Under the pieces are notes generated by a model. It did not search any database. It had not been told where the DNA came from and was given only the letters and a program-made list of their open reading frames with translations. Below, piece after piece: positions 1,869 through 55,232 of a DNA stretch of 64,000 nt. Source of the DNA: Haliscomenobacter sp. (GTDB taxonomy: Bacteria; Bacteroidota; Bacteroidia; Chitinophagales; Saprospiraceae); assembly GCF_041740695.1 (NCBI RefSeq), contig NZ_JBGSLK010000006.1, positions 23,639-87,638 on the forward strand, read 5' to 3'. Each line of letters begins with the position of its first letter. The first letter of the stretch is position 1. The position numbers were made by a program, and so were the translations under genes.

Positions 1869-2957
1869 ATGAGAATTTTCTACCGGCTGAGCTGCTTTTT
1901 TTTGCTTTGCACTACGGTCCATCTGGGAGCCCAAGACATTCACTTTTCCCAGTACAACATGTCGCCCCTTACCCTAAACCCCGCCCAAGCCGGAGCTTTT
2001 TTTGGCACTGCCAGGATCGGTGGAATTTACCGGGATCAGTGGTTGTTTCTTCCCAAAGATTATTCCACTCGTTCCTTTTTTATTGATGCCCCGGTCATCA
2101 AAGGTTTTCGCAAAAAACGCAACGACTGGGTCGGCGCTGGCTTTTCATTTTATGGCGACCGGGCAGGTACTTCTCGTTTGGGCTCCGCGCAGCAAGGTGC
2201 CATCAACGCATCTTACCATTTTGCACTGACCAAAAAAGGAGATCAACACTTGACTCTGGGGATTTCAACCGGGAGCACCAAGTATTCAGTACGGGCAGAT
2301 AGTTTGCGTTTTGAAGAAGATATTCTGGGGCCTGGTGGCGGTGGTGGACAAATTAGTTCTGATCGGCAACGCTTCGGACAAGGCTCTAGTGATCCAGATA
2401 ACCCTTATTTCGAATCTCAGGCATCGCGTACTTTTTCAGTTGGCTTGATGTTCAAATCGACCAATAAGGAAGGTGATTTGTTGGAGCTTGGGGTTTCTGC
2501 AGCACACATCAACGGCCCGGAATATGGCTTTGGCCTCGGCAATCGGGATACCACCGATACTGGTAAACGGGCCAACAAAGTTAAAAAACCAACTCGAACC
2601 ATCTTTCATGGTTTGTACACCAAAAACCTGACCGATAAAATAAGCATTTCGCCCTCCCTTTTGTTCCAGTCGGTAGCGAATTCTACCGAGATTGTACCAG
2701 AATTAATGGGTGGCTACAAGTGGACCAAAGACATTCGTTTCAATGCGGGTTTGGGTTACCGCGTAGGGGATGCAGCCATCTTACTGTTGGGCGTAGACCA
2801 CAAAGACCTGCGCATTGGTGCGTCCTGGGACATGCGTTTGGGCGAATTGTCCAGCGCCCGGGGCATCAAAGGTGGTTTTGAACTGGCGGCCAACTACATC
2901 ATCAAGTTGTACAAAAAGCCCAATGTGCCACCTTCACTTTTGTGTCCAAGACTTTAA
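1869..2957 (+). CDS. T9SS-associated PorP/SprF family outer-membrane protein
   Basis: It has a signal peptide ending 'LGAQD'. The N-terminal motif 'IHFSQYNMSPLTLNPAQAG' is the hallmark of PorP/SprF, and the length of about 360 aa suits a beta-barrel. Confidence 0.75.
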   Translation: MRIFYRLSCFFLLCTTVHLGAQDIHFSQYNMSPLTLNPAQAGAFFGTARIGGIYRDQWLFLPKDYSTRSFFIDAPVIKGFRKKRNDWVGAGFSFYGDRAGTSRLGSAQQGAINASYHFALTKKGDQHLTLGISTGSTKYSVRADSLRFEEDILGPGGGGGQISSDRQRFGQGSSDPDNPYFESQASRTFSVGLMFKSTNKEGDLLELGVSAAHINGPEYGFGLGNRDTTDTGKRANKVKKPTRTIFHGLYTKNLTDKISISPSLLFQSVANSTEIVPELMGGYKWTKDIRFNAGLGYRVGDAAILLLGVDHKDLRIGASWDMRLGELSSARGIKGGFELAANYIIKLYKKPNVPPSLLCPRL

Positions 2958-5643: not shown

Positions 5644-5904
5644 TTGATTTTTATGCAAAAACTCATTCTAAACATAGAAGAAAGTCGATATGGATTAATT
5701 CTTCAATTTTTAAAAACTTTGGATTATGTGAAAATTGAAGAAGAAGTTCCTTCTCCTAACCTAGAGCGAGAAGAGGTAAAGCCTAGCTCTGATAGTCAAC
5801 TGTTCTTATTGCAAGAAACACTCAAAAAACAGACCTCCCCTCTTTTTCAGGATATTATTAATCCTGTAGAATGGCAAAATCAACAAAGGAATGAGTGGTC
5901 GTAG
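5644..5904 (+). CDS. putative antitoxin of a type II TA pair
   Basis: This 86-aa ORF overlaps the downstream PIN toxin gene by 14 nt, which is the classic VapB-VapC arrangement. I do not recognise its family. Confidence 0.45.
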   Translation: MIFMQKLILNIEESRYGLILQFLKTLDYVKIEEEVPSPNLEREEVKPSSDSQLFLLQETLKKQTSPLFQDIINPVEWQNQQRNEWS

Positions 5905-6265
5905 ACTTTTGCTGGATTCCAATATCATTATTTATGTTGCAAAAAAACAATTAGACCCTGGAGGCTTTATTCAGCCCGAGGACGAGCTTTTTATTTCGGA
6001 CATTTCATACATGGAGACTCTGGGCTATCCTTTTTCTGATGAAAATGAAAAACGAGAGACCACAGCCATACTAGATGTTTTGTTCCGTTTCTCCATCGAA
6101 GAATCTATAGTCCAGAAAGTAGTTGAAATCAAGCAACAGCGCAGAATTAAGTTGCCAGATGCGATTATCGCAGCAACGGCAATCGTTCGCAACTGTGCAA
6201 TAGTCACCAGGAATGTAAGCGACTTTCAAAACTTTGCAGGCCTTGTGGTTATTAACCCGATGTAA
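5891..6265 (+). CDS. vapC: PIN-domain toxin (VapC family)
   Basis: 'LLDSNIIIYV' supplies the N-terminal Asp. 'DAIIAATAIVRNCAIVTRNVSDF' is a PIN C-terminal acidic motif. The protein is 124 aa. Confidence 0.75.
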   Translation: MSGRRLLLDSNIIIYVAKKQLDPGGFIQPEDELFISDISYMETLGYPFSDENEKRETTAILDVLFRFSIEESIVQKVVEIKQQRRIKLPDAIIAATAIVRNCAIVTRNVSDFQNFAGLVVINPM

Positions 6266-33112: not shown

Positions 33113-33982
33113 CTAGAAGATTTGGGTTTGTATAAAGATTTGAAAGGATCGATTTATGATGGGCTGAAACTCCTGTTCTATAAATGGCAAAAGGATGGTA
33201 TCAAAGTTGGATACGATGTTGATGTATACGAATGAGTATTCTACATTAGGCTTTCTTCCGTCAAATATTCTTTTAAAAATAAGGTTCATTTGGCGTTGAA
33301 ATTGATCAGGAGTGAGGGGTTCTATAGGGTTCAAAAGCTCTATCAATTGTTTGTTGAGGTCATGAAAAAATTGATTGATGATTGTTTGCCGCCGAATTCT
33401 CAACCCCTCACGGTTTAAGTTGTAAACATCAATGCTTATGTTACCAGAGTTGCTTTTTCCATGCAAAAACCCATCCTGATCTAAATATAAATGATCCAAA
33501 GGATCTACTATTTCTGGATTCAGCAAGAGAGGCTTCTCAGCTTGCATGGCTTCATGTAAAATCGAATAATGAGCGACATCGCTTGGATGGTTCAAAAGTC
33601 GAATTCCCGCAATTGGAAAGCGATTCCCTTTAGCACCTTTCCCATTGCAATTTTGACAAGCTAAAAGGAGATTTGACCATTCATTGCCCAGCCAATAATA
33701 ACCTTGATGGGTTTCTCCTGCTTTTAGGTCTTGTTGATCTAATTTTGCTTTAGGTCGGTAATGTTCTACCTGTAGAGGGGCGCTGTGGGTAATAGTGGAT
33801 TCACAATAGGCGCATTTATGGTGATAAATCTTGGATAAGGCAGTTTTGACCGGGGGGTGTTTGTAATTCCTGATGTACATACTTCCGTCTTGTGCCGCAA
33901 CAGCGGCAAGTGTTTGCTGTTGAGCAGTCTTTTGAGTAAGGTGACGTGGAATTGCCTCGAAGTCCTTATGTACTTTGATCAT
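33113..33982 (-). CDS. HNH endonuclease (TIGR02646-like), PtuB-like
   Basis: The HNH motifs are 'CAYCE...H(x)YRPK' and 'LLACQNCN..KG'. It overlaps the upstream ATPase gene by 4 bp. The local sequence is AT-rich. Confidence 0.65.
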   Translation of the reverse strand: MIKVHKDFEAIPRHLTQKTAQQQTLAAVAAQDGSMYIRNYKHPPVKTALSKIYHHKCAYCESTITHSAPLQVEHYRPKAKLDQQDLKAGETHQGYYWLGNEWSNLLLACQNCNGKGAKGNRFPIAGIRLLNHPSDVAHYSILHEAMQAEKPLLLNPEIVDPLDHLYLDQDGFLHGKSNSGNISIDVYNLNREGLRIRRQTIINQFFHDLNKQLIELLNPIEPLTPDQFQRQMNLIFKRIFDGRKPNVEYSFVYINIVSNFDTILLPFIEQEFQPIINRSFQIFIQTQIF

Positions 33983-35145
33983 TTCAATGCTTGCGCGAGC
34001 TTTTTTAAACGATTTTTAATTTCTTCATTTGCCATCGCTTCTTCGAAAGAGTCTTCAGTGAGTAAATCTTTCGGGCCAGTATTTGCCGTGGGAATAATTT
34101 CCTCAAGGTCAAAAATAGGTGAGGTAAGCAAGCTATTGGGCAGCAGCCTTGTCAAGTCAATATCCAATTTTTCAACAGTAATACCTGCTTCACTGCTTTG
34201 GTGTACTTTTAATACTACACTTTCTTTTGGTGCACCTAAAAGTGGGATGGGGCTGTGGGTGCTGGCGATGAACTGGATTTTTGGGAAAATTTCAGACAGA
34301 AGGCCGGGCAGGGCTTTTTGCCAGGTGGGGTGAAGGTGGACGTCGAGTTCGTCGATTAGGACGATGCCTTCTAATTGTTCCGGAGTACTAATTTCAGGTT
34401 GAGTATTAAATAGACGGATCACCATGTCTCCAATCATTGCAATAATATTACGATTACCTGAAGCCAATTGATTGAAGTTTTTTGCAGTATTAAGCTTTTC
34501 TCCAAGATCATCTTTTTCATAGAAAAAAACTTTGTCTTTTGCTACATCGACTTCTATCTTCTCAATATTGGGCATAAGTCGAAGGAATAAGCTTTTAATG
34601 GCTTCAACTCTTTTTTTGAGAAGGTTGACAAGCTTTTCGTCTTTATACATAAGTTCTGGCAAAGAACTTCTATAAGTCATCACCCTTAATTCTGGGTCAA
34701 TATCTAATAAGATGCCATCAGAGTTGAACAAACTGTATGATTGAGCACTTTTTTCCTCGCCAAAAACACTCACATTGAGTCTGGATGCGCCATATGCTAA
34801 AGTTTTTCGAATTAGATCGTCATCAGATGGTAAATCATTAACACCTGCAGATGCACCATCAAGTAGTCCCGTTGTAGCTTTGAAGTAAGATGATTTTCCA
34901 TGTCTTAAACCTATATTAATATCAAATTCGCCATCTTCTAAAATCAGTTTTTTATCTCTATTCCCAAACAACCCCACAAACAACGCCTGCAACACACTCG
35001 TCTTACCCCCTCCATTTTTCCCCGTCAAAAAAATCCACTTGGTATCAGCAGGAATACCTTCCACTGAGGTGTCTTTGATGCCTCGAAAGCCTTCGATGTG
35101 AAAAGAAGTAATGCCAAAGCTGGGACCGTTGCTCATATTGGTCAA
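33979..35145 (-). CDS. ABC/SMC-like AAA ATPase (AAA_15/AAA_21 type), PtuA-like
   Basis: The Walker A is 'LTGKNGGGKTSVLQALF'. The ABC-signature-like motif is 'LASGNRNII'. The Walker B is 'IVLIDELDVHLHP'. The H-loop is 'IASTHSP'. Confidence 0.65.
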   Translation of the reverse strand: MTNMSNGPSFGITSFHIEGFRGIKDTSVEGIPADTKWIFLTGKNGGGKTSVLQALFVGLFGNRDKKLILEDGEFDINIGLRHGKSSYFKATTGLLDGASAGVNDLPSDDDLIRKTLAYGASRLNVSVFGEEKSAQSYSLFNSDGILLDIDPELRVMTYRSSLPELMYKDEKLVNLLKKRVEAIKSLFLRLMPNIEKIEVDVAKDKVFFYEKDDLGEKLNTAKNFNQLASGNRNIIAMIGDMVIRLFNTQPEISTPEQLEGIVLIDELDVHLHPTWQKALPGLLSEIFPKIQFIASTHSPIPLLGAPKESVVLKVHQSSEAGITVEKLDIDLTRLLPNSLLTSPIFDLEEIIPTANTGPKDLLTEDSFEEAMANEEIKNRLKKLAQALK

Positions 35146-35190
35146 ATTTTACCACTAAAGTACGCCCTTTTTGGGAAAAAGGAAAGTGAG

Positions 35191-36069
35191 TTAATACTTC
35201 CGCCTCTTCCGCCACTCCTCCAAAATATTCAAATCCTGCTCATTCTTAATTAAGGTATGCAAATGAGGCGGAAGCTGCTCCTTGAGATCAGTTTCAGCCA
35301 AAGCGCTGGCGGGCAATTGTTCAAACAACAAAAGGCTGATCCAATCCAATAACTCGCTGGTGGAAGGCCGCTTTTTTAAACCCGTCACTTCGCGCAGCGC
35401 ATAAAACAATTGCAGGGCGTTGTTGAGCAATTCCTCGCGGATATTGGGAAAATGCACGTGGACAATGTCCAACATGGTAGCTTTATCCGGGAAACGGATG
35501 TAGTGGAAAAGGCAGCGCCGCAGGAAGGCATCCGGCAATTCTTTTTCGTTGTTGGAAGTGATGATGACGATGGGGCGGTTCACCGCTTTGATGGTTTGTT
35601 GCAGCTCGTACACATAAAACTCCATGCGGTCCAGTTCCAGCAATAAGTCATTGGGGAACTCGATGTCGGCTTTGTCAATTTCGTCGATGAGCAGTACCAC
35701 TGATTCGTCGGCGGTGAACGCTTCCCAGAGTTTGCCCTTTTTGATGTAGTGGCTGATGTCGTCTACACCCTCTTTGCCCAATTGGGAGTCGCGCAGGCGC
35801 GATACTGCGTCGTACTCATACAGGCCTTGTTGGGCCAAGGTAGTCGATTTGATGTGCCAAGTCAGCAGCTTTTTACCCAGCGCATTGGCAATCTCGTGGG
35901 CCAGTAGGGTTTTGCCCGTGCCCGGCTCGCCTTTAACCAGTAAGGGGCGTTGAAGATAAATGGCCGCATTGACAGCTATTTGCAATTCTGAGGTGGCGAC
36001 GTAAGAGGATGTTCCTTGAAATGACATAGCAGCAGTTAATTTTAGGGTTCCAGATTCCCCATCAGGCAC
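35191..36069 (-). CDS. MoxR-family AAA+ ATPase
   Basis: The Walker A is 'GEPGTGKT'. The Walker B is 'VLLIDEIDKA'. The sensor region is 'VIITSNNEKELP'. The track ORF uses a GTG start at 36069, and an alternative ATG start lies at 36027. Confidence 0.8.
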   Translation of the reverse strand: MPDGESGTLKLTAAMSFQGTSSYVATSELQIAVNAAIYLQRPLLVKGEPGTGKTLLAHEIANALGKKLLTWHIKSTTLAQQGLYEYDAVSRLRDSQLGKEGVDDISHYIKKGKLWEAFTADESVVLLIDEIDKADIEFPNDLLLELDRMEFYVYELQQTIKAVNRPIVIITSNNEKELPDAFLRRCLFHYIRFPDKATMLDIVHVHFPNIREELLNNALQLFYALREVTGLKKRPSTSELLDWISLLLFEQLPASALAETDLKEQLPPHLHTLIKNEQDLNILEEWRKRRKY

Positions 36070-47559: not shown

Positions 47560-48156
47560 TCAACTCGACTTCCGCCGTTCAATCTCATCCCGAATCTGTG
47601 CCGCTTTCTCATAATTTTCTTCATCCAGCACCTCATCCAACATGCGCGTCAGAGCCTCGGTAGAGTAGGAGGCAAGTGGGTTGTCGGACATACCCGTGGA
47701 AGGTGCGGCAGCAAATAGCTCTTCATCTTCATCGCTACCTTCGGTATCTTCGAGGACTACCCCAGCAGCATCCAAAATGAACTCGTAGGTATAGATTGGA
47801 CAGTTGAACCGAACGGCCATGGCCAGCGCATCGGAGGTGCGGGAGTCCACCTCGGTTACATCGCCATCGCGCTCACACACCAGGCGGGCGTAAAAGATGC
47901 CATCGAGCAGGTTGTTGATGATGATCTCCTTGAGGTTGATGTTGAAAGTCTCCAGGGCGTTTTTGAACAAGTCGTGGGTGAGCGGGCGGTTCGGGGTCAT
48001 TCTTTCCATGGCTACAGCGATGGCTTGCGCCTCGAAACTGCCAATGACAATCGGTAAACGGCGAGCACCTTTCTTCTCTCCCAGCACTACCGCATAATTG
48101 TGGGACTGGGTAACGCTATGGGAAAGTGCAACTATATCCAACTCAATTTTTCTCAT
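47560..48156 (-). CDS. bifunctional nuclease (BFN/DUF151) domain protein with a C-terminal UVR motif
   Basis: 'ARRLPIVIGSFEAQAIA' is the BFN core. 'YEKAAQIRDEIERRK' is a UvrB/UvrC-type UVR helix. Confidence 0.7.
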   Translation of the reverse strand: MRKIELDIVALSHSVTQSHNYAVVLGEKKGARRLPIVIGSFEAQAIAVAMERMTPNRPLTHDLFKNALETFNINLKEIIINNLLDGIFYARLVCERDGDVTEVDSRTSDALAMAVRFNCPIYTYEFILDAAGVVLEDTEGSDEDEELFAAAPSTGMSDNPLASYSTEALTRMLDEVLDEENYEKAAQIRDEIERRKSS

Positions 48157-48268
48157 CGTTTGGGCTTAAACGGTATTCCTGTTCAACAATGTAGCTCGGC
48201 CTAAGGTTGATTTTAGGGCGAAAGCGGCGCAAAGGTAGGAAATAAATGGGAGAAATCCAAATGGGTTT

Positions 48269-48680
48269 TTGGAGTTCAAAAGTGTAAACAAATAAAAAAG
48301 GGATCCATCTGCAGCGGGAACAAAATCAATAAAAAACCGCTACAACTGGATCCCTTTGTGAATAATACAACACTAAAGTCACAGTGCCATATTGTGAACA
48401 AAATCAGACAAAATAAGGCGTACTATCATTGTGCATGTTTAATAAGCTTGGTAAAAAGTGCAGCCCGGAGGCTACACTTCGGATTTGTGGCTACAAGTAA
48501 TTAAGTTGGAACTTACATGGAAGGATCGTCTTCCTTTTCTGTTTGTTCTTAGGACAAAGTAAGGGGAAAAAGGGCGCAATTTAGGTGTCGTTTTACAGAA
48601 AAAAAAGATATAGGAGATTTGGGGATTTTGGTTAAATTTTGAGCAGTAAATTTCTGATTTTTAATATTTTAAAATTCTAG
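48269..48680. repeat. copy A of a noncoding direct repeat of about 400 bp (about 90-95% identical to copy B at 50289-50690)
   Basis: I aligned the two copies by eye. On the minus strand it ends with a strong terminator hairpin (AAAGGGATCCA...TGGATCCCTTT + T6) located at 48293-48360. Confidence 0.75.
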
Positions 48681-48748
48681 AAACAATTACTATTTATACA
48701 TTTTGATGCTGAATCGGGAGTATTATTGTATCAGCCAGATGCTCATTC

Positions 48749-49591
48749 TTAGTTAGTGAGCTGCCAATATCCGCCTTTGTCGGCACCTACCCTTTGGATT
48801 GTCCCGTTTTCTTTTAATTTGTTGAGCAAATACTCTACCCCTCTGCGTGTGAGTCCGGTTTCTCTCATCATCTCTTTGCTTGTAGTTTTAGCGTTGGATT
48901 TAATGAGGAGGAGGATTTTTTCTTCCGAAGTTTTCTCCACAGTTTTTAACGGACGTTGGAATGTCACAGTGAACATTCCTTCTGTACTGTATTGAGGCAA
49001 TGGTAAATTTGTTGCTTTCATTGACTCGTTCATTCGGTTGATTCCTGATCCGATTTGTTCAACGAGATGCATTTTTGCAAAGAGTCCAAAAATGAGCGGG
49101 TTACGGGAATGGCTTCGCTTGCCAAAATCTGCGGGGCTAATTGCACTTACTAATCCATCAGGGTTGCTGATTTCGATGCGGTCGGTGAATAATTCAACAG
49201 TAGTGACGGCGCCTTTGTCGTAGTAGTCGCGATGAGATAAATAGTTGATGATGGCTTCTTTGAATACCGTTTCGGGTATTTCCCAGATTTCATTCCTGGG
49301 GCCAGAGCCTTGGCCTTCAATGTCATACCGAACGTCCAGTTTTTCTCTGAGCCATAAAATAGCTTTGAGGTACTGAGCATACAAGGGGCCACCAAAAGGC
49401 TTGTCATCAATAATGTAACGTTTATTCGTGCCAGAGAAAGCAACGCAACGGATGATGGCTTTTTCAAAATAGGTTTCTGGCGCTTTGCCAAAGAACAAAA
49501 CTGCACCACTTTTTACAAATCCTTCACCCGTAAACAACTTCAGATTGTTGTACACCTGGAAATCGGGTACTGTGGCGCTCAAATGAGCCAT
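48749..49591 (-). pseudogene. C-terminal part (HATPase_c_4-like + winged HTH) of a RecG-like/AlbA_2-type ATP-binding regulator, separated from its N-terminal part by a frameshift
   Basis: It overlaps ORF 49579-50091 by 13 nt in a different frame. The two ORFs together have the typical length of about 450 aa for the family, and the C-terminal HTH is 'TSKEMMRETGLTRRGVEYLLNKLKENG'. Confidence 0.5.
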
Positions 49592-50091
49592 TTCCTTAAA
49601 AATAGCTGCGTTGGTTTTGTCAATTTATTGGCAGCATCAAAATCTCTACAGGGACTTTCATCAAAATAAATTTTCCCAGACTGCTGGAAAAAGCCCCTCA
49701 TTTCCTCTGCGGTAGTCAATTTTTGGCTATTCGGACCAAGATGAATGTATATGGCACCCGAAAAAATGTAAGGCTTTTCGGTACCCGAAGGCACCTCAAT
49801 TACACCGATATTTTTTCCTTCCACTTCAACCATAGATAAGGTACAATACAACGCAGGGCTAATGTCGCTAATGCTGTTTTGAATGGCGGAACGTTTGGCA
49901 TTGTCGATGTTGATGCCCTTGATTTGGTTATGGTCATCTACACCTAATAGTACTACACCTCCAGCCGCGTTGGCAAACGCGCATACTTCCTCAGTGAGTT
50001 CCCTTACTTTTGAAGGAACTGCAACCTTGAACTCGGCATTATAACCCTCGCTGCTGGTAACGATTAATTGGATGTCTTCTGCTGAAAGCAT
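49579..50091 (-). pseudogene. N-terminal part (AlbA_2/Schlafen-like DNA-binding domain) of the same split regulator
   Basis: 'EGYNAEFKVAV' and 'VCAFANAAGGVVLLGVDD' are typical of AlbA_2. Confidence 0.5.
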
Positions 50092-50288
50092 GGGTCGCTT
50101 GATGGTTGTGGAAGCTTTTGAAGGCTTGGTTTATTGGTCTTGCAAGATAAAAATAATTAATTGTTTGTGGAAAATAATTTTTGTTTGTTTTTTAAATAAT
50201 CGAACTTATCCTCAAATTGTTCAAACACTGTCCGAACAATTTGAAGATAAGTTTGATAAAACTGCTGGTAGAGGAACTTTGGTCAAGT

Positions 50289-50690
50289 TGGAGTTCAGAG
50301 GCGTATACAAACAAAAAAGGGATCCATTTGCAGCGGGAACAAAATCAATAAAAAACCGCTACATCTGGATCCCTTTGTGAATAATACAACACTAAGGTTA
50401 CAGTGCTATATTGTGAACAAAATCAGATAAAATAAGGCGTACTATCATTGTGCATGGTTAATAAGCTTGTGAAAAAGTGCAGCCCGGAGGCTACACTTCG
50501 GATTTGTGGCTACAAGTAATTAAGTAGGAACTTACATGGAAGGATCGTCTTCCTTTTCTGTTTGTTCTTAGGACAAAGTAAGGAGAAAAAGGGCAGGGTT
50601 TAGGTGTCATTTTGCAGAGTGAAATGATGGGAGAGATTTTGTGGTTTTGCTTGAATTTAGAACAGTAAATTATTGATTTTTATATAGTTA
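50289..50690. repeat. copy B of the noncoding direct repeat of about 400 bp
   Basis: See copy A. The terminator hairpin lies at about 50312-50378. Confidence 0.75.
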
Positions 50691-50716: not shown

Positions 50717-51655
50717 CTACAAATTAAACCGATACCCTAATAAACATTCTAACCCAAATGAATTATTACTGGCCAGTTGCTGGAGGTTATAGCCACCCAA
50801 TATTCCGATCCGAAGTTTTCCATCTTGTAGAATTCCATCTTTGAGAATTACCCCGGCCTGTAGCGAGACTTGCCCCCCCGAAGCATAGGATACCCCCGTC
50901 CAAAAGGTATCTTCTAATTCATAGTTGAGATTGATGGAGTATCCGAGCAGATTTGGTTCTGAAAAATGCAGCCAGATCGAAGGCTCGAGGTAGGAAAAAT
51001 CATACGGGATACGGAACCCAACGAAGGTATTGGCTGCAAAAACACGATTGAGATGACCAATGGTGTTGGCTGAACTGCTGGGAATTTTACTGCGAATCAA
51101 TTGATTGGCGGCTAACCCAAAGAAAAACCAGGTTTCATCGTAATCAAAACGATAATGTGAAGTATAAACCATACCAAAACCAGCATTGAAGCGACCTACA
51201 TTGTTGAAATCAACAATTGCTTGAGGGTCATCGGCATCCGCCACAACTGCACGATTGGCTGCAAATTGATATTGCTGGAAGCTGGTAGACAAACCAAAAG
51301 TGATTTGATCATCTGATCGCAAGCCCAATTCCATTTTATAAGCATAAGTCAATGCAAGACTGTTGGTGGTGAATTGACCTACCTCATCGTGTTGTAAAAA
51401 ACCGCCCAGGCTTAACTTGCGATGAATGGCTGGCACATGGATAAATGCTTGAGCAGTGGCAGGGGCACCAGAAAAACCAAGCCATTGCTGGCGATAAAAT
51501 GCACCGAACTCCATGAAGTCTTCAGCTGAAGTAAGCCCGGGATTGTAGATAAAGTCGGTGGATCCCATCGGTGAACGATAAGGAAGCTGTTGCGCTCCCA
51601 GTGTAGTACTTAAAAATAGAGCACAGCATATATAAACTGCATTTAGATTTTGCAT
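50717..51655 (-). CDS. T9SS PorP/SprF-family membrane protein (type-B CTD partner)
   Basis: It has a signal peptide and the PorP/SprF-like N-terminal region 'GFSGAPATAQAF'. It lies immediately downstream of a gene with a type-B CTD. Confidence 0.75.
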   Translation of the reverse strand: MQNLNAVYICCALFLSTTLGAQQLPYRSPMGSTDFIYNPGLTSAEDFMEFGAFYRQQWLGFSGAPATAQAFIHVPAIHRKLSLGGFLQHDEVGQFTTNSLALTYAYKMELGLRSDDQITFGLSTSFQQYQFAANRAVVADADDPQAIVDFNNVGRFNAGFGMVYTSHYRFDYDETWFFFGLAANQLIRSKIPSSSANTIGHLNRVFAANTFVGFRIPYDFSYLEPSIWLHFSEPNLLGYSINLNYELEDTFWTGVSYASGGQVSLQAGVILKDGILQDGKLRIGILGGYNLQQLASNNSFGLECLLGYRFNL

Positions 51656-51656
51656 T

Positions 51657-54600
51657 TCAATTGCGGATTATGGTGAGTGAATTTTTGAGAACAACTTCAT
51701 CAAGTTCCAAAACATAGTAATATACACCAGGAGGAAGTGGCCTGCCATTGTAGCTTCCATCCCAGTCATTTTGATAATTATCTTGTTTAAAAACAATCCC
51801 GCCCCAACGATTGAATACCGTTATTTTAGTGGTGTTGAACAACTCCAGGTCATTGAATTTTAGAACATCATTTTTCCCATCGCCATTAGGGGTGAATAAG
51901 TTGATCGGTTTGACCAATTCAGTGATATTGGAATAAACGCCAACAAAAACAGTATCCCTAAGTATACATTTGTTGTCATCCTGAATGCTTACAACAAAGT
52001 AGGTGCTATCCTTGGGTGCTACTTCAGGATTGGAGATTGTTTCGTTGCTTAATTCAAATTCAGGTGTAGTCCATTGATACATCTTACCTCCGCTTGCTTG
52101 TAGTTTAAGTTTCCGGCCAACCAGTATGACGGTATCTTTTCCAGCGGAGCCATTTACTTTGCGTACCTCGATTTGGGCATAGGCTGTATCGGTACCACAA
52201 CGGTTTTCACTTATATAGCCATAAGTAGTATTAATATTGGGTTTGACCCGAATTTTATCCGCTGTCAATGGTTTACTCGTATTGCTAGGGTCTAACCAAC
52301 GCAGCGGACTGCCACCTTTTCCAACAAGTGTCGTAGAATCGCCCTGGCAAATAAAACTGACAGTTCTGTCAATTGTCGCTACGGGTAAATTGAGTGCAAT
52401 AACCCTAGTAGAGCCTTGTCCAATACACCCGTTTCGATCAGTAACAGTAACTTGATACAAACCGGCGGTGGCCGCAGTGATTAACCCTGTAGTGGAGCCG
52501 GTATTCCATTTGAAAATTTGCCCCCAGGAGCGCACATCTAAGGCCAGGTTTTCATTGGGACAAATGGTATCCGTGGGTACCAAGCTCACTACTGGGTTGG
52601 CCCATAAAATCAAACGGGTACTATCTGTCGTTTGGCAACCAAATTCATTGCTCACTTTAACCCGGTATACTTTGGCGTCTTCAACCGTAATACTACCCAC
52701 TTGGGCGCCAGTATTCCATTCATACATTTTTCCAGAACTCCTAACATCGAGGGTAGTTGTGGTGCCGGAACAAATGCGCAAGCTATCCGGTAGTGAAGGA
52801 TTGGGGTTGTTGTAAAAAATTGTGCGCAGGCTATCCAACGTTTCACAGCCAAATTTATCGAGGTAATTAACGGTATAAAGGCCAGCTGTACTCAGTTGAA
52901 TCATTGGGTCTGTGCTTCCATTGCTCCATGAGATGACCTTACCCAGTGAACTTGCATCAACACCAATGGTTTTGCCAAGACAGGCCGTAAGTGGGTTGGG
53001 CCATTGACGGGCAATGGTTGGTCTATTCTCAAGTAATACGCTATCAACAGCTGAGCAACCCTGTTCATTACTGACCATTACACTGACGCGCCCTGCTTGG
53101 GCTACTTCAATTGTTCCAGTGCTGGCACCACTGCTCCAGCTAAATTTGGTCCCCAGTTTTGACACATCCAAGGTAACTGCCTTATTCGGGCAAAGGATCA
53201 TTTTATCGGGAAGGTCTATTTTGGGGTTTGGAGCTATCGTGATGGTCGTAGAATCCAGAACGGAACAACCCTCTGGATTGGCAATAGATACACTATACAT
53301 TCCCGATTTGCGTGGAACAATTGAGGCGCTGGTTTCGCCAGTGCTCCATAGATACTTTAGAGGACCAGTACCCGCCACAATTTTTTTCGTATCTACTTCA
53401 CAATCATTGATGACTCTGGGTAAAGTACGTTGAGGAGCTGCCTTGAAGGTTATGGTTACACTATCGATAGATTGACAATTGGCGATGTTGCTTACCGTCA
53501 CGGAATACAAACCAGATTTTGCGGATTCTATAGACGGTAATTTTTCATCGGTACTCCAGCGGTAACGGTAACCTACGGAGTCGACAACGCTTAGTTTGGC
53601 AATTTTTCCATTACAAAGAGATTGATCCGGCCCCAGGTTAACGACTGGTGCGGGTAAAAAGGCCACGCTAGAGCTGTCTTTTATCACGCAACCTTCAGCG
53701 TTCGTGAGTGTAACAATATAAAGTCCACTCTTTTTGGGTGAAATAATTGCAGTTGTATCGCCAGAACTCCAGTTGAATTTTATAGCCGTGGTGACGGGAT
53801 TCAAAGTAATCGACTCTGATGCGCAACGGTTAACCTCAGAAGGGAGATTACTAATCGGGAGTGCTGCAGTGGCGACTTCAGTACTTGTTGTGCTTCTACA
53901 CCCTGCTGAATTACTGGCGTTGACTTGATAGATTCCTGCTTTCCGTACTGTGATACTGGCAGCCGTATCTCCGGTGCTCCAGCGGAAAAATTCTGCACTA
54001 CCACCAGGTTTTAGTACCAGTGAGTCACCAAAGCACAAATTGGTTCTTAGCGGAAGTGAGACCATAGGTGGGTCCACAAAAGTGACTTTGATGCTATCTA
54101 TACTGCTGCAATTGGTGGCATCGGTTAATTTAAGTTTATACCAGCCGGGATTTTTCACTGCAAGGAAATAGGTGCTGTCTCCGGTGTTCCATTGATAAGT
54201 AGTTGCAAGGTTTTGAGGAGCACTAAGTTGAAGGCTATCACCTTTGCAGATATCCCGATTGGCACCCAATTCTAAAGCCGGACGGGCATTTACAACCAAG
54301 TCCACTCCTTTTTCATTGGTGCAACCAAAAGCGGTGCTTACGACAACACTGTAACGACCTGCTTTACTTACTGCGATAAAATTGGCTTTGGAACCGGTAC
54401 TCCAGCTAAAGCTTGCACTTTTTACATTGGTGCTCACTTCAATCCGGGCAGTTTCCCCCTGGCAAATTTGTGGAGAAGAGGAGCTGAGGTTTACTTCTGG
54501 AATAATTTTTAGGTCTTTTATTTCAATGCTTTGTGTTTTTATACACCCTTTTAAAGAAACCGTTAACGTGTAAACTCCACCCGTTTCAGTGCTTAGTTTT

Positions 54601-55232
54601 GATCGACTGCTGATCACCCCCAAACTGTCGGTTGACCATTGAAATTTTGCACCAATGACATCAATTTGTGGATTAAGTTCAATTTGAGGTTCATTGCAGG
54701 TGATGGTGTCCAGGGCTGGTAGTGTAAAATTGAAGTTTGGAGAGATGGCGTTTAACTGCTCGAGCCGATCGATCGCCAGGTTTTGGAAACCAGGATTTTG
54801 ACTGTTTTCTATTCCTTCAAATTTAGTCGTGATCAAATCGTCTTCAATGGTACACCCATTTGGTAAGATGATGCGAAATTTGAGAGGTTCATTGGACAAA
54901 AAACCTTCATCTCCCTCGGCTGTTTTGCCATAGACTTGCAGGATCACCGATTTTTCCTGCCAGGTAATTTGGCCAGCGCACCTTAAGGTATCCGCAGATT
55001 CAAAAACGACAGAAATGATGCTGCCCTTAGGAAGGGCTTGCCCGTCCAGCTTGGGTACTCCCACTGGTATAAGGATAATGTGAGCATTCGGATTGGGTAA
55101 AACGCAGTCTTGTTGGGCGTAGCCCATAATATACAACCCTAACGCCAGCAAGGTTAGGTATAGTTTCCTCCATTTGAACATGTCAAAAGGTATTTGAGAT
55201 GAAAAGAAGTGTGGAGCAAATGCTTTATTCAC
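51657..55232 (-). CDS. large surface protein with about 13 tandem Ig-like repeats and a T9SS type-B C-terminal sorting domain (gliding-motility-associated CTD)
   Basis: The C-terminus 'FTPNGDGKNDVLKFNDLELF...VFNRWGGIVFKQDNYQNDWDGSYNGRPLPPGVYYYVLEL' matches the type-B CTD. It has repeated units of about 75 aa with conserved C...W..G..Y.V patterns. The likely signal-peptide start is the internal Met 'MFKWRKLYLTLLAL'. Confidence 0.75.
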   Translation of the reverse strand: MNKAFAPHFFSSQIPFDMFKWRKLYLTLLALGLYIMGYAQQDCVLPNPNAHIILIPVGVPKLDGQALPKGSIISVVFESADTLRCAGQITWQEKSVILQVYGKTAEGDEGFLSNEPLKFRIILPNGCTIEDDLITTKFEGIENSQNPGFQNLAIDRLEQLNAISPNFNFTLPALDTITCNEPQIELNPQIDVIGAKFQWSTDSLGVISSRSKLSTETGGVYTLTVSLKGCIKTQSIEIKDLKIIPEVNLSSSSPQICQGETARIEVSTNVKSASFSWSTGSKANFIAVSKAGRYSVVVSTAFGCTNEKGVDLVVNARPALELGANRDICKGDSLQLSAPQNLATTYQWNTGDSTYFLAVKNPGWYKLKLTDATNCSSIDSIKVTFVDPPMVSLPLRTNLCFGDSLVLKPGGSAEFFRWSTGDTAASITVRKAGIYQVNASNSAGCRSTTSTEVATAALPISNLPSEVNRCASESITLNPVTTAIKFNWSSGDTTAIISPKKSGLYIVTLTNAEGCVIKDSSSVAFLPAPVVNLGPDQSLCNGKIAKLSVVDSVGYRYRWSTDEKLPSIESAKSGLYSVTVSNIANCQSIDSVTITFKAAPQRTLPRVINDCEVDTKKIVAGTGPLKYLWSTGETSASIVPRKSGMYSVSIANPEGCSVLDSTTITIAPNPKIDLPDKMILCPNKAVTLDVSKLGTKFSWSSGASTGTIEVAQAGRVSVMVSNEQGCSAVDSVLLENRPTIARQWPNPLTACLGKTIGVDASSLGKVISWSNGSTDPMIQLSTAGLYTVNYLDKFGCETLDSLRTIFYNNPNPSLPDSLRICSGTTTTLDVRSSGKMYEWNTGAQVGSITVEDAKVYRVKVSNEFGCQTTDSTRLILWANPVVSLVPTDTICPNENLALDVRSWGQIFKWNTGSTTGLITAATAGLYQVTVTDRNGCIGQGSTRVIALNLPVATIDRTVSFICQGDSTTLVGKGGSPLRWLDPSNTSKPLTADKIRVKPNINTTYGYISENRCGTDTAYAQIEVRKVNGSAGKDTVILVGRKLKLQASGGKMYQWTTPEFELSNETISNPEVAPKDSTYFVVSIQDDNKCILRDTVFVGVYSNITELVKPINLFTPNGDGKNDVLKFNDLELFNTTKITVFNRWGGIVFKQDNYQNDWDGSYNGRPLPPGVYYYVLELDEVVLKNSLTIIRN

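What the first reader, a model, noticed from the sequence alone, without database searches (positions are those of the whole stretch)
48269..50690. Two copies of a noncoding element of about 400 bp, each ending in a strong minus-strand intrinsic terminator, flanking a split RecG-like regulator gene
48269-48680 and 50289-50690 are about 90-95% identical over about 330 bp and diverge toward the AT-rich end. The conserved part has no ORF on either strand. On the minus strand each copy ends in a long hairpin (AAAGGGATCCA..TGTAGCGG-loop-CCGCTGCA..TGGATCCCTTT) followed by a U-run, which is a textbook rho-independent terminator. Each copy lies 3' of one minus-strand gene and 5' of the next. This fits either a duplicated sRNA gene or long structured 3'UTR, or direct repeats generated when the [repeat + regulator gene] unit was inserted or duplicated.
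Basis: seen in the sequence. Interest (0 to 1): 0.6.

Follow-up and report, generated by a model that had tools for sequence, protein, structure and literature searches.

The report
Duplicated structured small-RNA gene copies
Two near-identical copies of a ~375-bp unit, which most likely encodes a ~260-nt folded small RNA with its own terminator, sit on either side of a broken regulator gene; the RNA family is absent from Rfam, but it is an ordinary kind of element and was found only in a few uncultured Saprospiraceae.

Summary
The repeat is real: 48269-48663 and 50288-50682 are 90% identical over 395 bp, 95-96% in the core. There are only two copies in the window.

It is not a neutral duplication. 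The same unit occurs in 1-3 copies at this one locus, upstream of the BFN nuclease gene, in related Saprospiraceae MAGs. It is 84-94% conserved there, while four-fold degenerate sites of the neighbouring gene are 56-71% identical.

Fifteen copies share six helices (98.4% of cells paired). Five pairs show compensatory changes. There are 102 G·U cells against 4 A·C cells, so the fold exists only on the window's minus strand. No ORF is conserved.

An invariant TACTTTGY box matches a promoter motif described in Flavobacterium. It lies 5 nt before the first helix, which predicts a ~259-nt RNA ending in a -31 kcal/mol terminator.

There are no hits in Rfam or among phages and plasmids, and none elsewhere in a 4.5-Mb contig of a relative.

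In different strains the copies flank different genes (SprB-like adhesin, AAA-ATPase/PDDEXK, the SLFN/AlbA_2 regulator). They therefore also serve as homology arms for swapping cassettes.

Best reading: sibling copies of a clade-restricted small-RNA gene. Expression and targets are untested.

The parts
48289..48663 (-). Copy A (next to BFN) of the ~375-nt conserved unit: upstream regulatory part, RNA body and terminator
   Evidence: nhmmer profile of 14 copies matches 48663-48289, E = 2.3e-117. The covariance model scores 337 bits on the minus strand and 28 bits on the plus strand.
48554..48561 (-). Copy A: the box TACTTTGT (TTACTTTG with its flanking T), the predicted -12..-5 promoter box; its CTTTG is invariant in all 15 copies
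   Evidence: T14 T15 C17 T18 T19 T20 G21 are invariant in alignment A4. The box matches the TAnnTTGY 'SM5' motif placed at -12 to -5 in F. psychrophilum and validated by mutagenesis at remFG-sprCDBF (PMC9723704). Its role as a promoter here is inferred.
48291..48549 (-). Copy A: predicted ~259-nt small RNA (the transcription start is inferred 5 nt after the box; the 3' end lies in the U-tract)
   Evidence: The MFE equals the centroid and reproduces the consensus fold. The body without the terminator has z = -4.88 on the minus strand and z = -1.57 on the plus strand. Consensus of six helices.
48290..48357 (-). Copy A: intrinsic terminator. The arms are 21 nt and the 19-nt loop carries the conserved AUUGAUUUUGUU (core AUUUUGUU invariant in all 15 copies), followed by a U-tract
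   Evidence: -31.2 kcal/mol, z = -7.2. Helix 6 has 3 pairs changed on both sides and 8 pairs changed on one side only.
50308..50682 (-). Copy B (next to PorP) of the same unit
   Evidence: nhmmer matches 50682-50308, E = 1.6e-116. The covariance model scores 337 bits.
50573..50580 (-). Copy B: TACTTTGT box
   Evidence: Same alignment columns as in copy A. Sequence read.
50310..50568 (-). Copy B: predicted ~259-nt small RNA
   Evidence: Same fold as copy A, MFE -84.6 kcal/mol.
50310..50376 (-). Copy B: intrinsic terminator
   Evidence: -31.0 kcal/mol, z = -5.8.
48269..48288 (-). About 20 nt of 3' flank shared by the two window copies only (partner 50288-50307). It marks the edge of the duplication or conversion tract
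   Evidence: Alignment A1. Copies upstream of SLFN in L005 and upstream of BFN in other strains lack this shared flank.
49579..50091 (-). N-terminal fragment (SLFN_AlbA_2 domain) of the split regulator gene, the cargo between the copies
   Evidence: Pfam PF04326, E = 4e-21.
48749..49591 (-). C-terminal fragment (HATPase_c_4 + winged HTH) of the same gene
   Evidence: Pfam PF13749 at 1.8e-20 and PF13412 at 1.6e-6. The frameshift site at 49621-49629 was read.
48230..48261 (-). BFN's own sigma-A-type promoter, TTTG-N20-TACCTTTG, downstream of the copy A terminator
   Evidence: Sequence. This 73-130-nt stretch is kept in strains that lack the element (L001, L003, L008, L009).
47560..48156 (-). BFN (bifunctional nuclease + UVR) gene, the fixed anchor of the locus
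   Evidence: Pfam PF02577 at 7.5e-40. The protein is identical in L001-L010.
50717..51655 (-). PorP/SprF gene immediately upstream of copy B
   Evidence: Pfam PF11751 at 2.8e-36.

Best explanation
Each copy is a self-contained gene for a ~260-nt structured non-coding RNA, read on the window's minus strand.

Proposed anatomy and function:
- About 110 nt of conserved upstream DNA ends in a TACTTTGY box, a -12..-5 motif of Bacteroidota promoters.
- Transcription starts at about 48549 (copy A) and 50568 (copy B). This is inferred.
- The 5' end, GAACAAACAGA, pairs with UCUGAUUUUGUUC and closes a multi-helix domain. A 12-bp hairpin follows, then a long intrinsic terminator.
- The large terminator loop repeats the same U-rich motif, AUUGAUUUUGUU.
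- The RNA most likely acts in trans as a base-pairing or protein-binding regulator. The two invariant AUUUUGUU motifs are the likeliest contact surface for A-rich translation-initiation regions. This step is inferred.

Origin of the two copies:
- The window copies are sibling genes. The ancestral state is one copy between a SprB-like gene and BFN.
- The copies were made or homogenised recently (96% identical) in connection with the SLFN/AlbA_2 cassette lying between them.
- As 375-bp direct repeats they also act, as a by-product, as homology arms through which cargo genes at this variable locus are swapped, deleted or duplicated.
For: Shown:
1. The repeat is real and confined to this locus. 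The window holds two copies. The genome-contig scan found 5 stretches in 4 MAG records, all Saprospiraceae / Haliscomenobacter-like. The 4.54-Mb contig has only two matches, and both lie at this locus.
2. Purifying selection. The element core is 83.5-94.4% identical between the window and relatives. Four-fold degenerate sites of the adjacent BFN gene are 56-71% identical.
3. Structure. Across 15 distinct copies, 62 pairs in 6 helices have 98.4% of cells paired. Five pairs changed on both sides, against 1.0 ± 0.8 in shuffles (0 of 500). Sliding the partners drops pairing to 37-55%.
4. Strand. There are 102 G·U cells against 4 A·C cells. The RNA body has z = -4.88 on the minus strand and -1.57 on the plus strand. 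The covariance model scores 337 bits against 28 bits.
5. Terminators: -31 kcal/mol followed by a U-tract.
6. No conserved ORF.
7. An invariant TTACTTTG lies 5-7 nt before helix 1. It matches TAnnTTGY at -12..-5 (PMC9723704).
8. The element is independent of the downstream genes. BFN keeps its own TTTG-N20-TAnnTTTG promoter and loses the element in L001, L003, L008 and L009. The SprB-like gene has the same upstream region with or without the element.
9. Paralogue clades a and b are about 85% identical to each other and 92-99% identical within a clade across strains. Duplicates are therefore retained for a long time.
Against: - There are no expression data of any kind.
- The promoter call rests on one 8-nt motif known from another family. 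No -33 element was found, and TAnnTTGY is only 2.4-fold enriched in the intergenic DNA of this window.
- Covariation is modest. Only 5 pairs show double changes, helices 1 and 2 never vary, and the model's effective sequence number is 1.42.
- The family is confined to one narrow clade, so shared ancestry inflates conservation.
- The element is dispensable. It is lost or reduced to remnants in L003, L008 and L009, and the L001 copy has lost the 3' strand of helix 1.
- No target stood out among the 44 translation-initiation regions of the window.
- The element always directly follows a gene on the same strand, so a 3'UTR origin cannot be excluded.
Confidence: 0.6

Rival explanations
1. The element is a 3'UTR or a 3'UTR-derived RNA. 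It has no promoter of its own. It is the structured tail and terminator of whichever gene lies upstream (PorP, SLFN, the SprB-like gene or the TonB-dependent receptor), possibly processed into a stable RNA.
For: Every copy starts 35-170 nt after a gene on the same strand, and no intervening terminator is seen in the window. In 'filled' sites the element replaces the upstream TonB-receptor gene's own terminator. 3'UTR-derived sRNAs are known in Bacteroides (PMC11697453).
Against: The upstream genes are four unrelated families, while about 110 nt of DNA upstream of the folded part is conserved together with the element. An invariant promoter-like box sits at the right distance from helix 1.
Confidence: 0.17
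2. The element is a DNA-level recombination module and the RNA is irrelevant. The repeats are cassette junctions at a hypervariable locus. They are kept because they mediate the capture and exchange of cargo genes.
For: [element then gene] units recur with different cargo and in different orders: SLFN, SprB-like and AAA-ATPase/PDDEXK_9. The unit boundaries are sharp and shared by three paralogue lineages. The window and L005 share the arrangement element-SLFN-element (a remnant in L005).
Against: The substitutions preserve RNA pairing on one strand only: 102 G·U cells against 4 A·C cells. Single-copy genomes conserve the element equally well (L004, L011). No recombinase is encoded in the 64-kb window. 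The remnant breakpoints differ (model positions about 277, 313 and the terminator loop), so recombination is not site-specific.
Confidence: 0.1
3. The element is a cis-acting leader or attenuator. Its promoter drives the downstream gene, and the terminator is a regulated read-through point.
For: The element is always co-oriented with, and 5' of, the next gene. No canonical promoter box was found between the a-type copy and the SprB-like start codon.
Against: The downstream genes are unrelated. BFN, SLFN and the AAA-ATPase gene each have their own promoter-like box after the terminator. BFN and the SprB-like gene keep identical upstream regions in strains without the element. No conserved alternative (antiterminator) pairing was found by inspecting alignment A4.
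Confidence: 0.06
4. The repeat is a neutral recent segmental duplication with no function, or a small-protein gene.
For: The two window copies are 96% identical, and the gene between them is a pseudogene. A 39-58-aa ORF recurs in several copies.
Against: Orthologues are far more conserved than synonymous sites. The ORF's ATG is ACG in 4 of 15 copies, and 1-nt indels shift the frame in 7 copies.
Confidence: 0.03

Closest known systems
Multicopy ('sibling') sRNA families of Bacteroidota, e.g. FopS/GibS of Bacteroides thetaiotaomicron (PMC11697453)
   Same: Paralogous non-coding RNA genes with a Bacteroidota-type promoter box and a Rho-independent terminator. They are mostly intergenic and conserved within a clade. 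Their presumed action is base pairing near start codons of mRNAs that lack a Shine-Dalgarno sequence.
   Different: FopS RNAs consist of a single-stranded 5' seed plus a terminator, and the 14 copies are dispersed around the genome. This RNA is about 260 nt with a closed multi-helix body, occurs in 1-3 copies, and all copies lie at one locus. The Rfam scan, which per the paper should include the FopS model, gave no hit. No sequence similarity was seen.
Structured 'Indep' sRNAs of Flavobacterium psychrophilum (e.g. Rfp18) and the SM5 promoter class (PMC9723704)
   Same: An independent transcript class with strong predicted folds. The promoter box TAnnTTGY lies at -12..-5. In F. psychrophilum that box drives the sprB gliding operon, and here the element neighbours SprB-like and PorP/SprF genes.
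   Different: The organism belongs to a different family (Saprospiraceae), there is no sequence homology, and promoter use was not tested here.
Tandem sibling sRNA genes in Proteobacteria and Firmicutes (OmrA/OmrB, LhrC1-5), from my own knowledge
   Same: Adjacent, co-oriented, near-identical sRNA genes kept alike by duplication or gene conversion.
   Different: Those pairs are directly adjacent. Here a 1.6-kb cargo gene, or a 4-kb one in other strains, separates the copies, and the cargo differs between strains.
tRNA/tmRNA genes as anchors of genomic islands, and integron attC cassette arrays
   Same: Copies or 3' fragments of an RNA gene flank variable cargo. L005 has a full copy, then SLFN, then a terminator-only remnant. 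The terminator is a 61-nt imperfect hairpin.
   Different: No integrase is encoded in the window. The repeats are full-length (375 bp), not a short att core. The remnant breakpoints are heterogeneous. The 250 nt upstream of the hairpin are conserved, which is unlike attC.

Membership tests
Any Rfam 15 family | Score at or above the family's gathering threshold | tested here: not met
   There were no matches at gathering level in the whole window. In E-value mode only sub-threshold miRNA-precursor models hit the terminator hairpin, for example mir-191 at 33.7 bits against a gathering score of 54.
Trans-acting bacterial sRNA gene | Rho-independent terminator at the 3' end | tested here: met
   Stems with 21-nt arms followed by U-tracts, -31 kcal/mol, z = -5.8 to -7.2. 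Pairing is kept in 15 copies, with 3 pairs changed on both sides.
Trans-acting bacterial sRNA gene | Non-coding: no conserved reading frame | tested here: met
   Six-frame ORF comparison of 15 copies. The start codon is lost in 4 copies and there are frame-shifting 1-nt indels.
Trans-acting bacterial sRNA gene | Conserved sequence and secondary structure beyond neutral expectation, on one strand | tested here: met
   Element identity of 84-94% against 56-71% at four-fold degenerate sites. 98.4% of cells are paired, with 0 of 500 shuffles as good. G·U to A·C cells are 102:4.
Trans-acting bacterial sRNA gene | Own promoter and a primary 5' end | tested here: inconclusive
   An invariant TACTTTGY box matches the published TAnnTTGY motif, but there is no -33 element and no transcript data.
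Trans-acting bacterial sRNA gene | A discrete transcript and base-pairing targets | not testable with these tools
   No RNA-seq data were available. A duplex scan of 44 initiation regions in the window found no outlier.
MITE or dispersed repeat | Many dispersed copies, terminal inverted repeats and target-site duplications | tested here: not met
   Only this locus matched: 2 matches in a 4.54-Mb contig and 4 MAG records in all. There were no real hits in the JGI metagenome, viral, plasmid or phage collections. The comparison of empty and filled sites shows replacement of a terminator, not an insertion with a target-site duplication.
Integron cassette array (attC) | An integron integrase nearby, with cassettes bounded by attC hairpins recombined at a fixed site | tested here: not met
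   No recombinase domain was found in any ORF of the window. The remnant breakpoints are heterogeneous. The R'/R'' core sites were not specifically searched.
Riboswitch or attenuator leader | A constant class of downstream gene that depends on read-through, with alternative terminator and antiterminator folds | tested here: not met
   There are four unrelated downstream genes, most with their own promoter box. The downstream genes keep the same upstream region without the element.

The most novel reading that the evidence does not exclude
The element could be more than an sRNA gene. It could be the junction module of a previously undescribed, integrase-independent cassette system. In that reading, [RNA element then gene] units (SprB-like adhesin, AAA-ATPase/PDDEXK_9, SLFN/AlbA_2 regulator) are captured, stacked and exchanged upstream of BFN by recombination at the RNA gene, and the RNA or its long conserved terminator hairpin takes part in or regulates that process.
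Probability: 0.1. Interest if true: 0.6.

Novelty: new member of a known kind. Interest (0 to 1): 0.3.

Why it matters
If transcribed, this would be a new structured small-RNA family from the Saprospiraceae, a little-studied lineage of Bacteroidota. No regulatory RNA from this group turned up in the literature searched. The RNA is unusually large and has an unusual terminator, whose 19-nt loop repeats an internal U-rich motif.

The locus also shows how duplicated RNA genes can act as portable homology that reshuffles adhesin and defence-like genes between strains.

The scope is narrow: four species-level MAGs and one locus. The kind of element, a sibling sRNA with an intrinsic terminator, is well known.

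Tried and rejected
- Rfam, at gathering and E-value thresholds, gave nothing but spurious miRNA hits on the hairpin.
- Protein-coding reading: rejected.
- Dispersed repeat or MITE: rejected. The genome scan, metagenome scan and two viral scans found nothing beyond this locus. The three metagenome matches were chance hits with no further similarity.
- Plasmid or phage origin: no blastn match.
- Ancient leader of BFN: rejected. Relatives with about 80% BFN identity have MazG-BFN with a 185-nt spacer and no element.
- Integron or island att site: no recombinase, and the breakpoints are heterogeneous.
- Target search with the conserved unpaired segments against 44 start regions in the window, and a search for the complement of the loop motif: no enrichment.
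- Extra contigs for the 97%-identical BFN variants (L024, L025) were too short or lacked the element.
- A canonical sigma-A promoter (-33 TTTG plus TAnnTTTG) for the element: not found. Only the box with a spacer one base shorter is present.
Full report
**Observation.** The two segments are a genuine direct repeat.
- The repeat finder reports 48269-48568 and 50288-50587 at 95% over 300 nt.
- blastn extends this to 48269-48663 vs 50288-50682 at 90.1% over 395 nt, E = 8e-155, with no other copy in the 64-kb window.
- Similarity fades in the AT-rich end and stops about 20-25 nt beyond the T-run.
- Each copy ends, on the minus strand, in a hairpin with 21-nt arms and a 19-nt loop followed by TTTTTT. 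The hairpins fold at -31.2 and -31.0 kcal/mol, with z = -7.2 and -5.8.

**Genes in the region.** All lie on the minus strand.
- BFN bifunctional nuclease + UVR: 47560-48156.
- A SLFN_AlbA_2 / HATPase_c_4 / winged-HTH gene split into 49579-50091 and 48749-49591.
- PorP/SprF: 50717-51655.
- A CHU_C adhesin-like protein: 51657-55232.

The split is a 1-nt frameshift in AATAAATTG at 49621-49629. An independently assembled 1154-nt contig (L019) is 100% identical across it.

**Organism and distribution.** The BFN protein is found, identical in sequence, on contigs of uncultured Saprospiraceae labelled Haliscomenobacter sp., Chitinophagales or Saprospiraceae bacterium.
- In those loci the element recurs at 69-88% identity in one to three copies. 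It is always intergenic, always co-oriented with BFN, and always in the stretch upstream of BFN.
- A 19-base conserved pattern scanned across one genome of each of 185,579 species found only 5 stretches in 4 MAG records. The 4.54-Mb contig holds just two matches, and both lie at this locus.
- The JGI metagenome scan returned three matches with no further similarity.
- Viral contigs, plasmids and phages gave nothing.
- Relatives whose BFN is about 80% identical have MazG-BFN with a 185-nt spacer and no element.
- The element is therefore a clade-restricted, locus-specific unit. It is not a mobile dispersed repeat.

**It is under selection and it folds, on one strand.**
- Between the window and its relatives, four-fold degenerate sites of BFN are only 56-71% identical, whereas the element core is 83.5-94.4% identical. 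For L011 the figures are 59% and 94%.
- Fifteen distinct copies align with almost no gaps (A4).
- RNAalifold gives six helices. Helix 1 (GAACAAACAGA with UCUGAUUUUGUUC) closes a domain that contains three hairpins. A 12-bp hairpin and the terminator follow.
- On this structure 98.4% of 918 cells are standard pairs. Five pairs changed on both sides, against 1.0 ± 0.8 in shuffles (0 of 500). Eighteen pairs vary on one side only while staying paired. Sliding the partners by 1-3 columns drops pairing to 37-55%.
- The one-sided changes are G·U↔A·U/G·C transitions. There are 102 G·U cells against 4 A·C cells, so the fold is maintained only for the window's minus strand.
- Without the terminator, the minus-strand body folds with z = -4.88 (0 of 200 shuffles as good) and its MFE equals the centroid. 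The plus strand gives z = -1.57.
- A covariance model scores the copies at 337 bits on the minus strand and 28 bits on the plus strand. It finds nothing else in 248 kb of held sequence.
- Caveats: helices 1 and 2 never vary, and the sequences are closely related (effective number 1.42).

**Not coding.** A 39-58-aa ORF recurs in several copies. Its ATG is ACG in four copies, and single-base indels in otherwise invariant blocks shift the frame in seven.

**Promoter and transcript model (inferred).**
- All 15 copies carry TT(A/T)CTTTG(Y) 5-7 nt before helix 1.
- TACTTTGY fits TAnnTTGY. That is the 'SM5' box, placed at -12 to -5 in Flavobacterium psychrophilum and shown by mutagenesis to drive remFG-sprCDBF (PMC9723704).
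- This places the transcription start at about 48549 (copy A) and 50568 (copy B). It gives a 259-nt RNA that begins exactly at the base of helix 1 and ends in the U-tract near 48291 or 50310.
- About 110 nt upstream of the box are also conserved, including AAAAYGACAYC, as expected for a regulated promoter. No -33 element was recognised.
- The terminator loop is unusually large and conserved. Its AUUGAUUUUGUU repeats the 3' strand of helix 1, and both are complementary to the RNA's 5' end. This suggests either an alternative or pseudoknot pairing, or two copies of a U-rich seed or protein-binding site. That step is speculation.

**Independence from neighbouring genes.**
- BFN has its own textbook Bacteroidota promoter, TTTG-N20-TACCTTTG (48230-48261), downstream of the copy A terminator.
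- Strains L001, L003, L008 and L009 keep that promoter but have lost the element or retain only remnants.
- SLFN and the AAA-ATPase gene also have promoter-like boxes after the terminator.
- Aligning 'empty' sites (L004, L011) with 'filled' sites (L002, L006, L007) between a TonB-dependent receptor gene and the SprB-like gene shows what the a-type copy did. Together with a spacer, it replaces the receptor gene's own terminator and leaves the SprB upstream region unchanged.
- The element is therefore not an obligatory leader of any one gene.

**Why there are two copies.** Locus layouts:

| Strain or locus | Layout |
|---|---|
| Window | PorP, E-SLFN, E-BFN |
| L010 | PorP, E-SprB, E-BFN |
| L002 / L006 / L007 | TonB, E-SprB, E-BFN |
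| L005 | TonB, E-AAA-ATPase, SprB, E-SLFN, terminator remnant-BFN |
| L001 | PorP, degenerate E-AAA-ATPase, BFN |
| L004 / L011 | SprB, E-BFN |
| L003 / L009 | a defence-like island (nSTAND, TIR, UvrD-like), half-terminator remnant-BFN |

- Outside the window lineage the copies form two old paralogue clades, about 85% identical between clades and 92-99% within. The window's two copies and L011 form a third clade, and winA and winB are 96.3% identical.
- The SLFN cassette of L005 is 88.7% identical to the window's over 1.5 kb. It is followed by a deletion that leaves only the terminator of the second copy. The arrangement E-SLFN-E is therefore older than the 96% identity suggests.
- The window copies have probably been homogenised by gene conversion. 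The conversion tract would also explain the extra ~20-25 nt of shared 3' flank.
- No recombinase, integrase or transposase is encoded anywhere in the window, and the remnant breakpoints differ. Ordinary homologous recombination between the 375-bp repeats therefore explains cassette gain, loss and replacement better than site-specific recombination does.

**Verdict.** The best-supported reading is a pair of sibling genes for a clade-specific, ~260-nt structured small RNA with an intrinsic terminator. It is absent from Rfam and from the literature searched. The duplicates also serve as recombination anchors at a variable locus.
- Shown: the repeat, its conservation, the one-strand structure, the terminator, the absence of coding potential, and its independence from downstream genes.
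- Inferred: the promoter, the transcript ends, trans action through the U-rich motifs, and gene conversion.
- The closest known analogues are multicopy sRNA families of Bacteroidota such as FopS (PMC11697453). This is a resemblance in kind, not membership.
- This is a new member of a known kind, of modest interest.

Noticed in passing
window 50199-50257: A near-perfect inverted repeat (29-nt arms, 86% complementary, 1-nt spacer) lies between the copy B terminator and the SLFN promoter-like box TATCTTGC (50142-50149). It is partly conserved upstream of the SLFN gene in L005. It could be an operator for the HTH regulator itself.
   Followed up: partly
L010 9822-9922 (same as L013): A palindromic insertion of about 100-115 nt (37-nt arms; the outer 19-nt arms are 95% complementary) lies between the element's terminator and the BFN promoter. 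It is absent from all other strains and looks like a small MITE-like insertion.
   Followed up: partly
L003 1-9800 and L009, upstream of BFN: In these strains the space upstream of BFN holds a defence-like island (nSTAND1, WG-repeat/LRR, TIR_2 + FGE-sulfatase, AAA-ATPase_like, UvrD-like helicase), and only half of the element's terminator survives. The BFN upstream region is a hotspot for variable genes.
   Followed up: partly
L005 8418-9791: The SLFN/AlbA_2 regulator is fragmented in L005 as well (239 aa with AlbA_2, then 88 aa with the HTH). The cassette seems to be decaying independently in two lineages, unless both cases are assembly errors.
   Followed up: partly
window 33113-36069 (-): Three adjacent minus-strand genes: an AAA/AAA_5 ATPase (35191-36069), an AAA_15/AAA_21 (AbiEii-like, SMC_N) ATPase (33979-35145), and a 289-aa protein with no Pfam hit (33113-33982). 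L008 carries a similar trio near BFN. This may be a defence module.
   Followed up: no
window 5891-6265 (+): A stand-alone PIN-domain protein (124 aa), possibly a VapC-type toxin. The short region upstream was not examined for an antitoxin.
   Followed up: no
window 48230-48261 and 50142-50149; L001 and L005 upstream of the AAA-ATPase gene: Both the canonical TAnnTTTG box and the TAnnTTGY box (spacer one base shorter) occur upstream of genes in this Saprospiraceae genome. Each is about 2.4-fold denser in intergenic than in coding DNA of the window.
   Followed up: partly
window 1869-2957 (+) and 50717-51655 (-): There are two PorP/SprF paralogues in the window, each next to large T9SS-cargo-type proteins. 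Only the second is followed by the RNA element.
   Followed up: no
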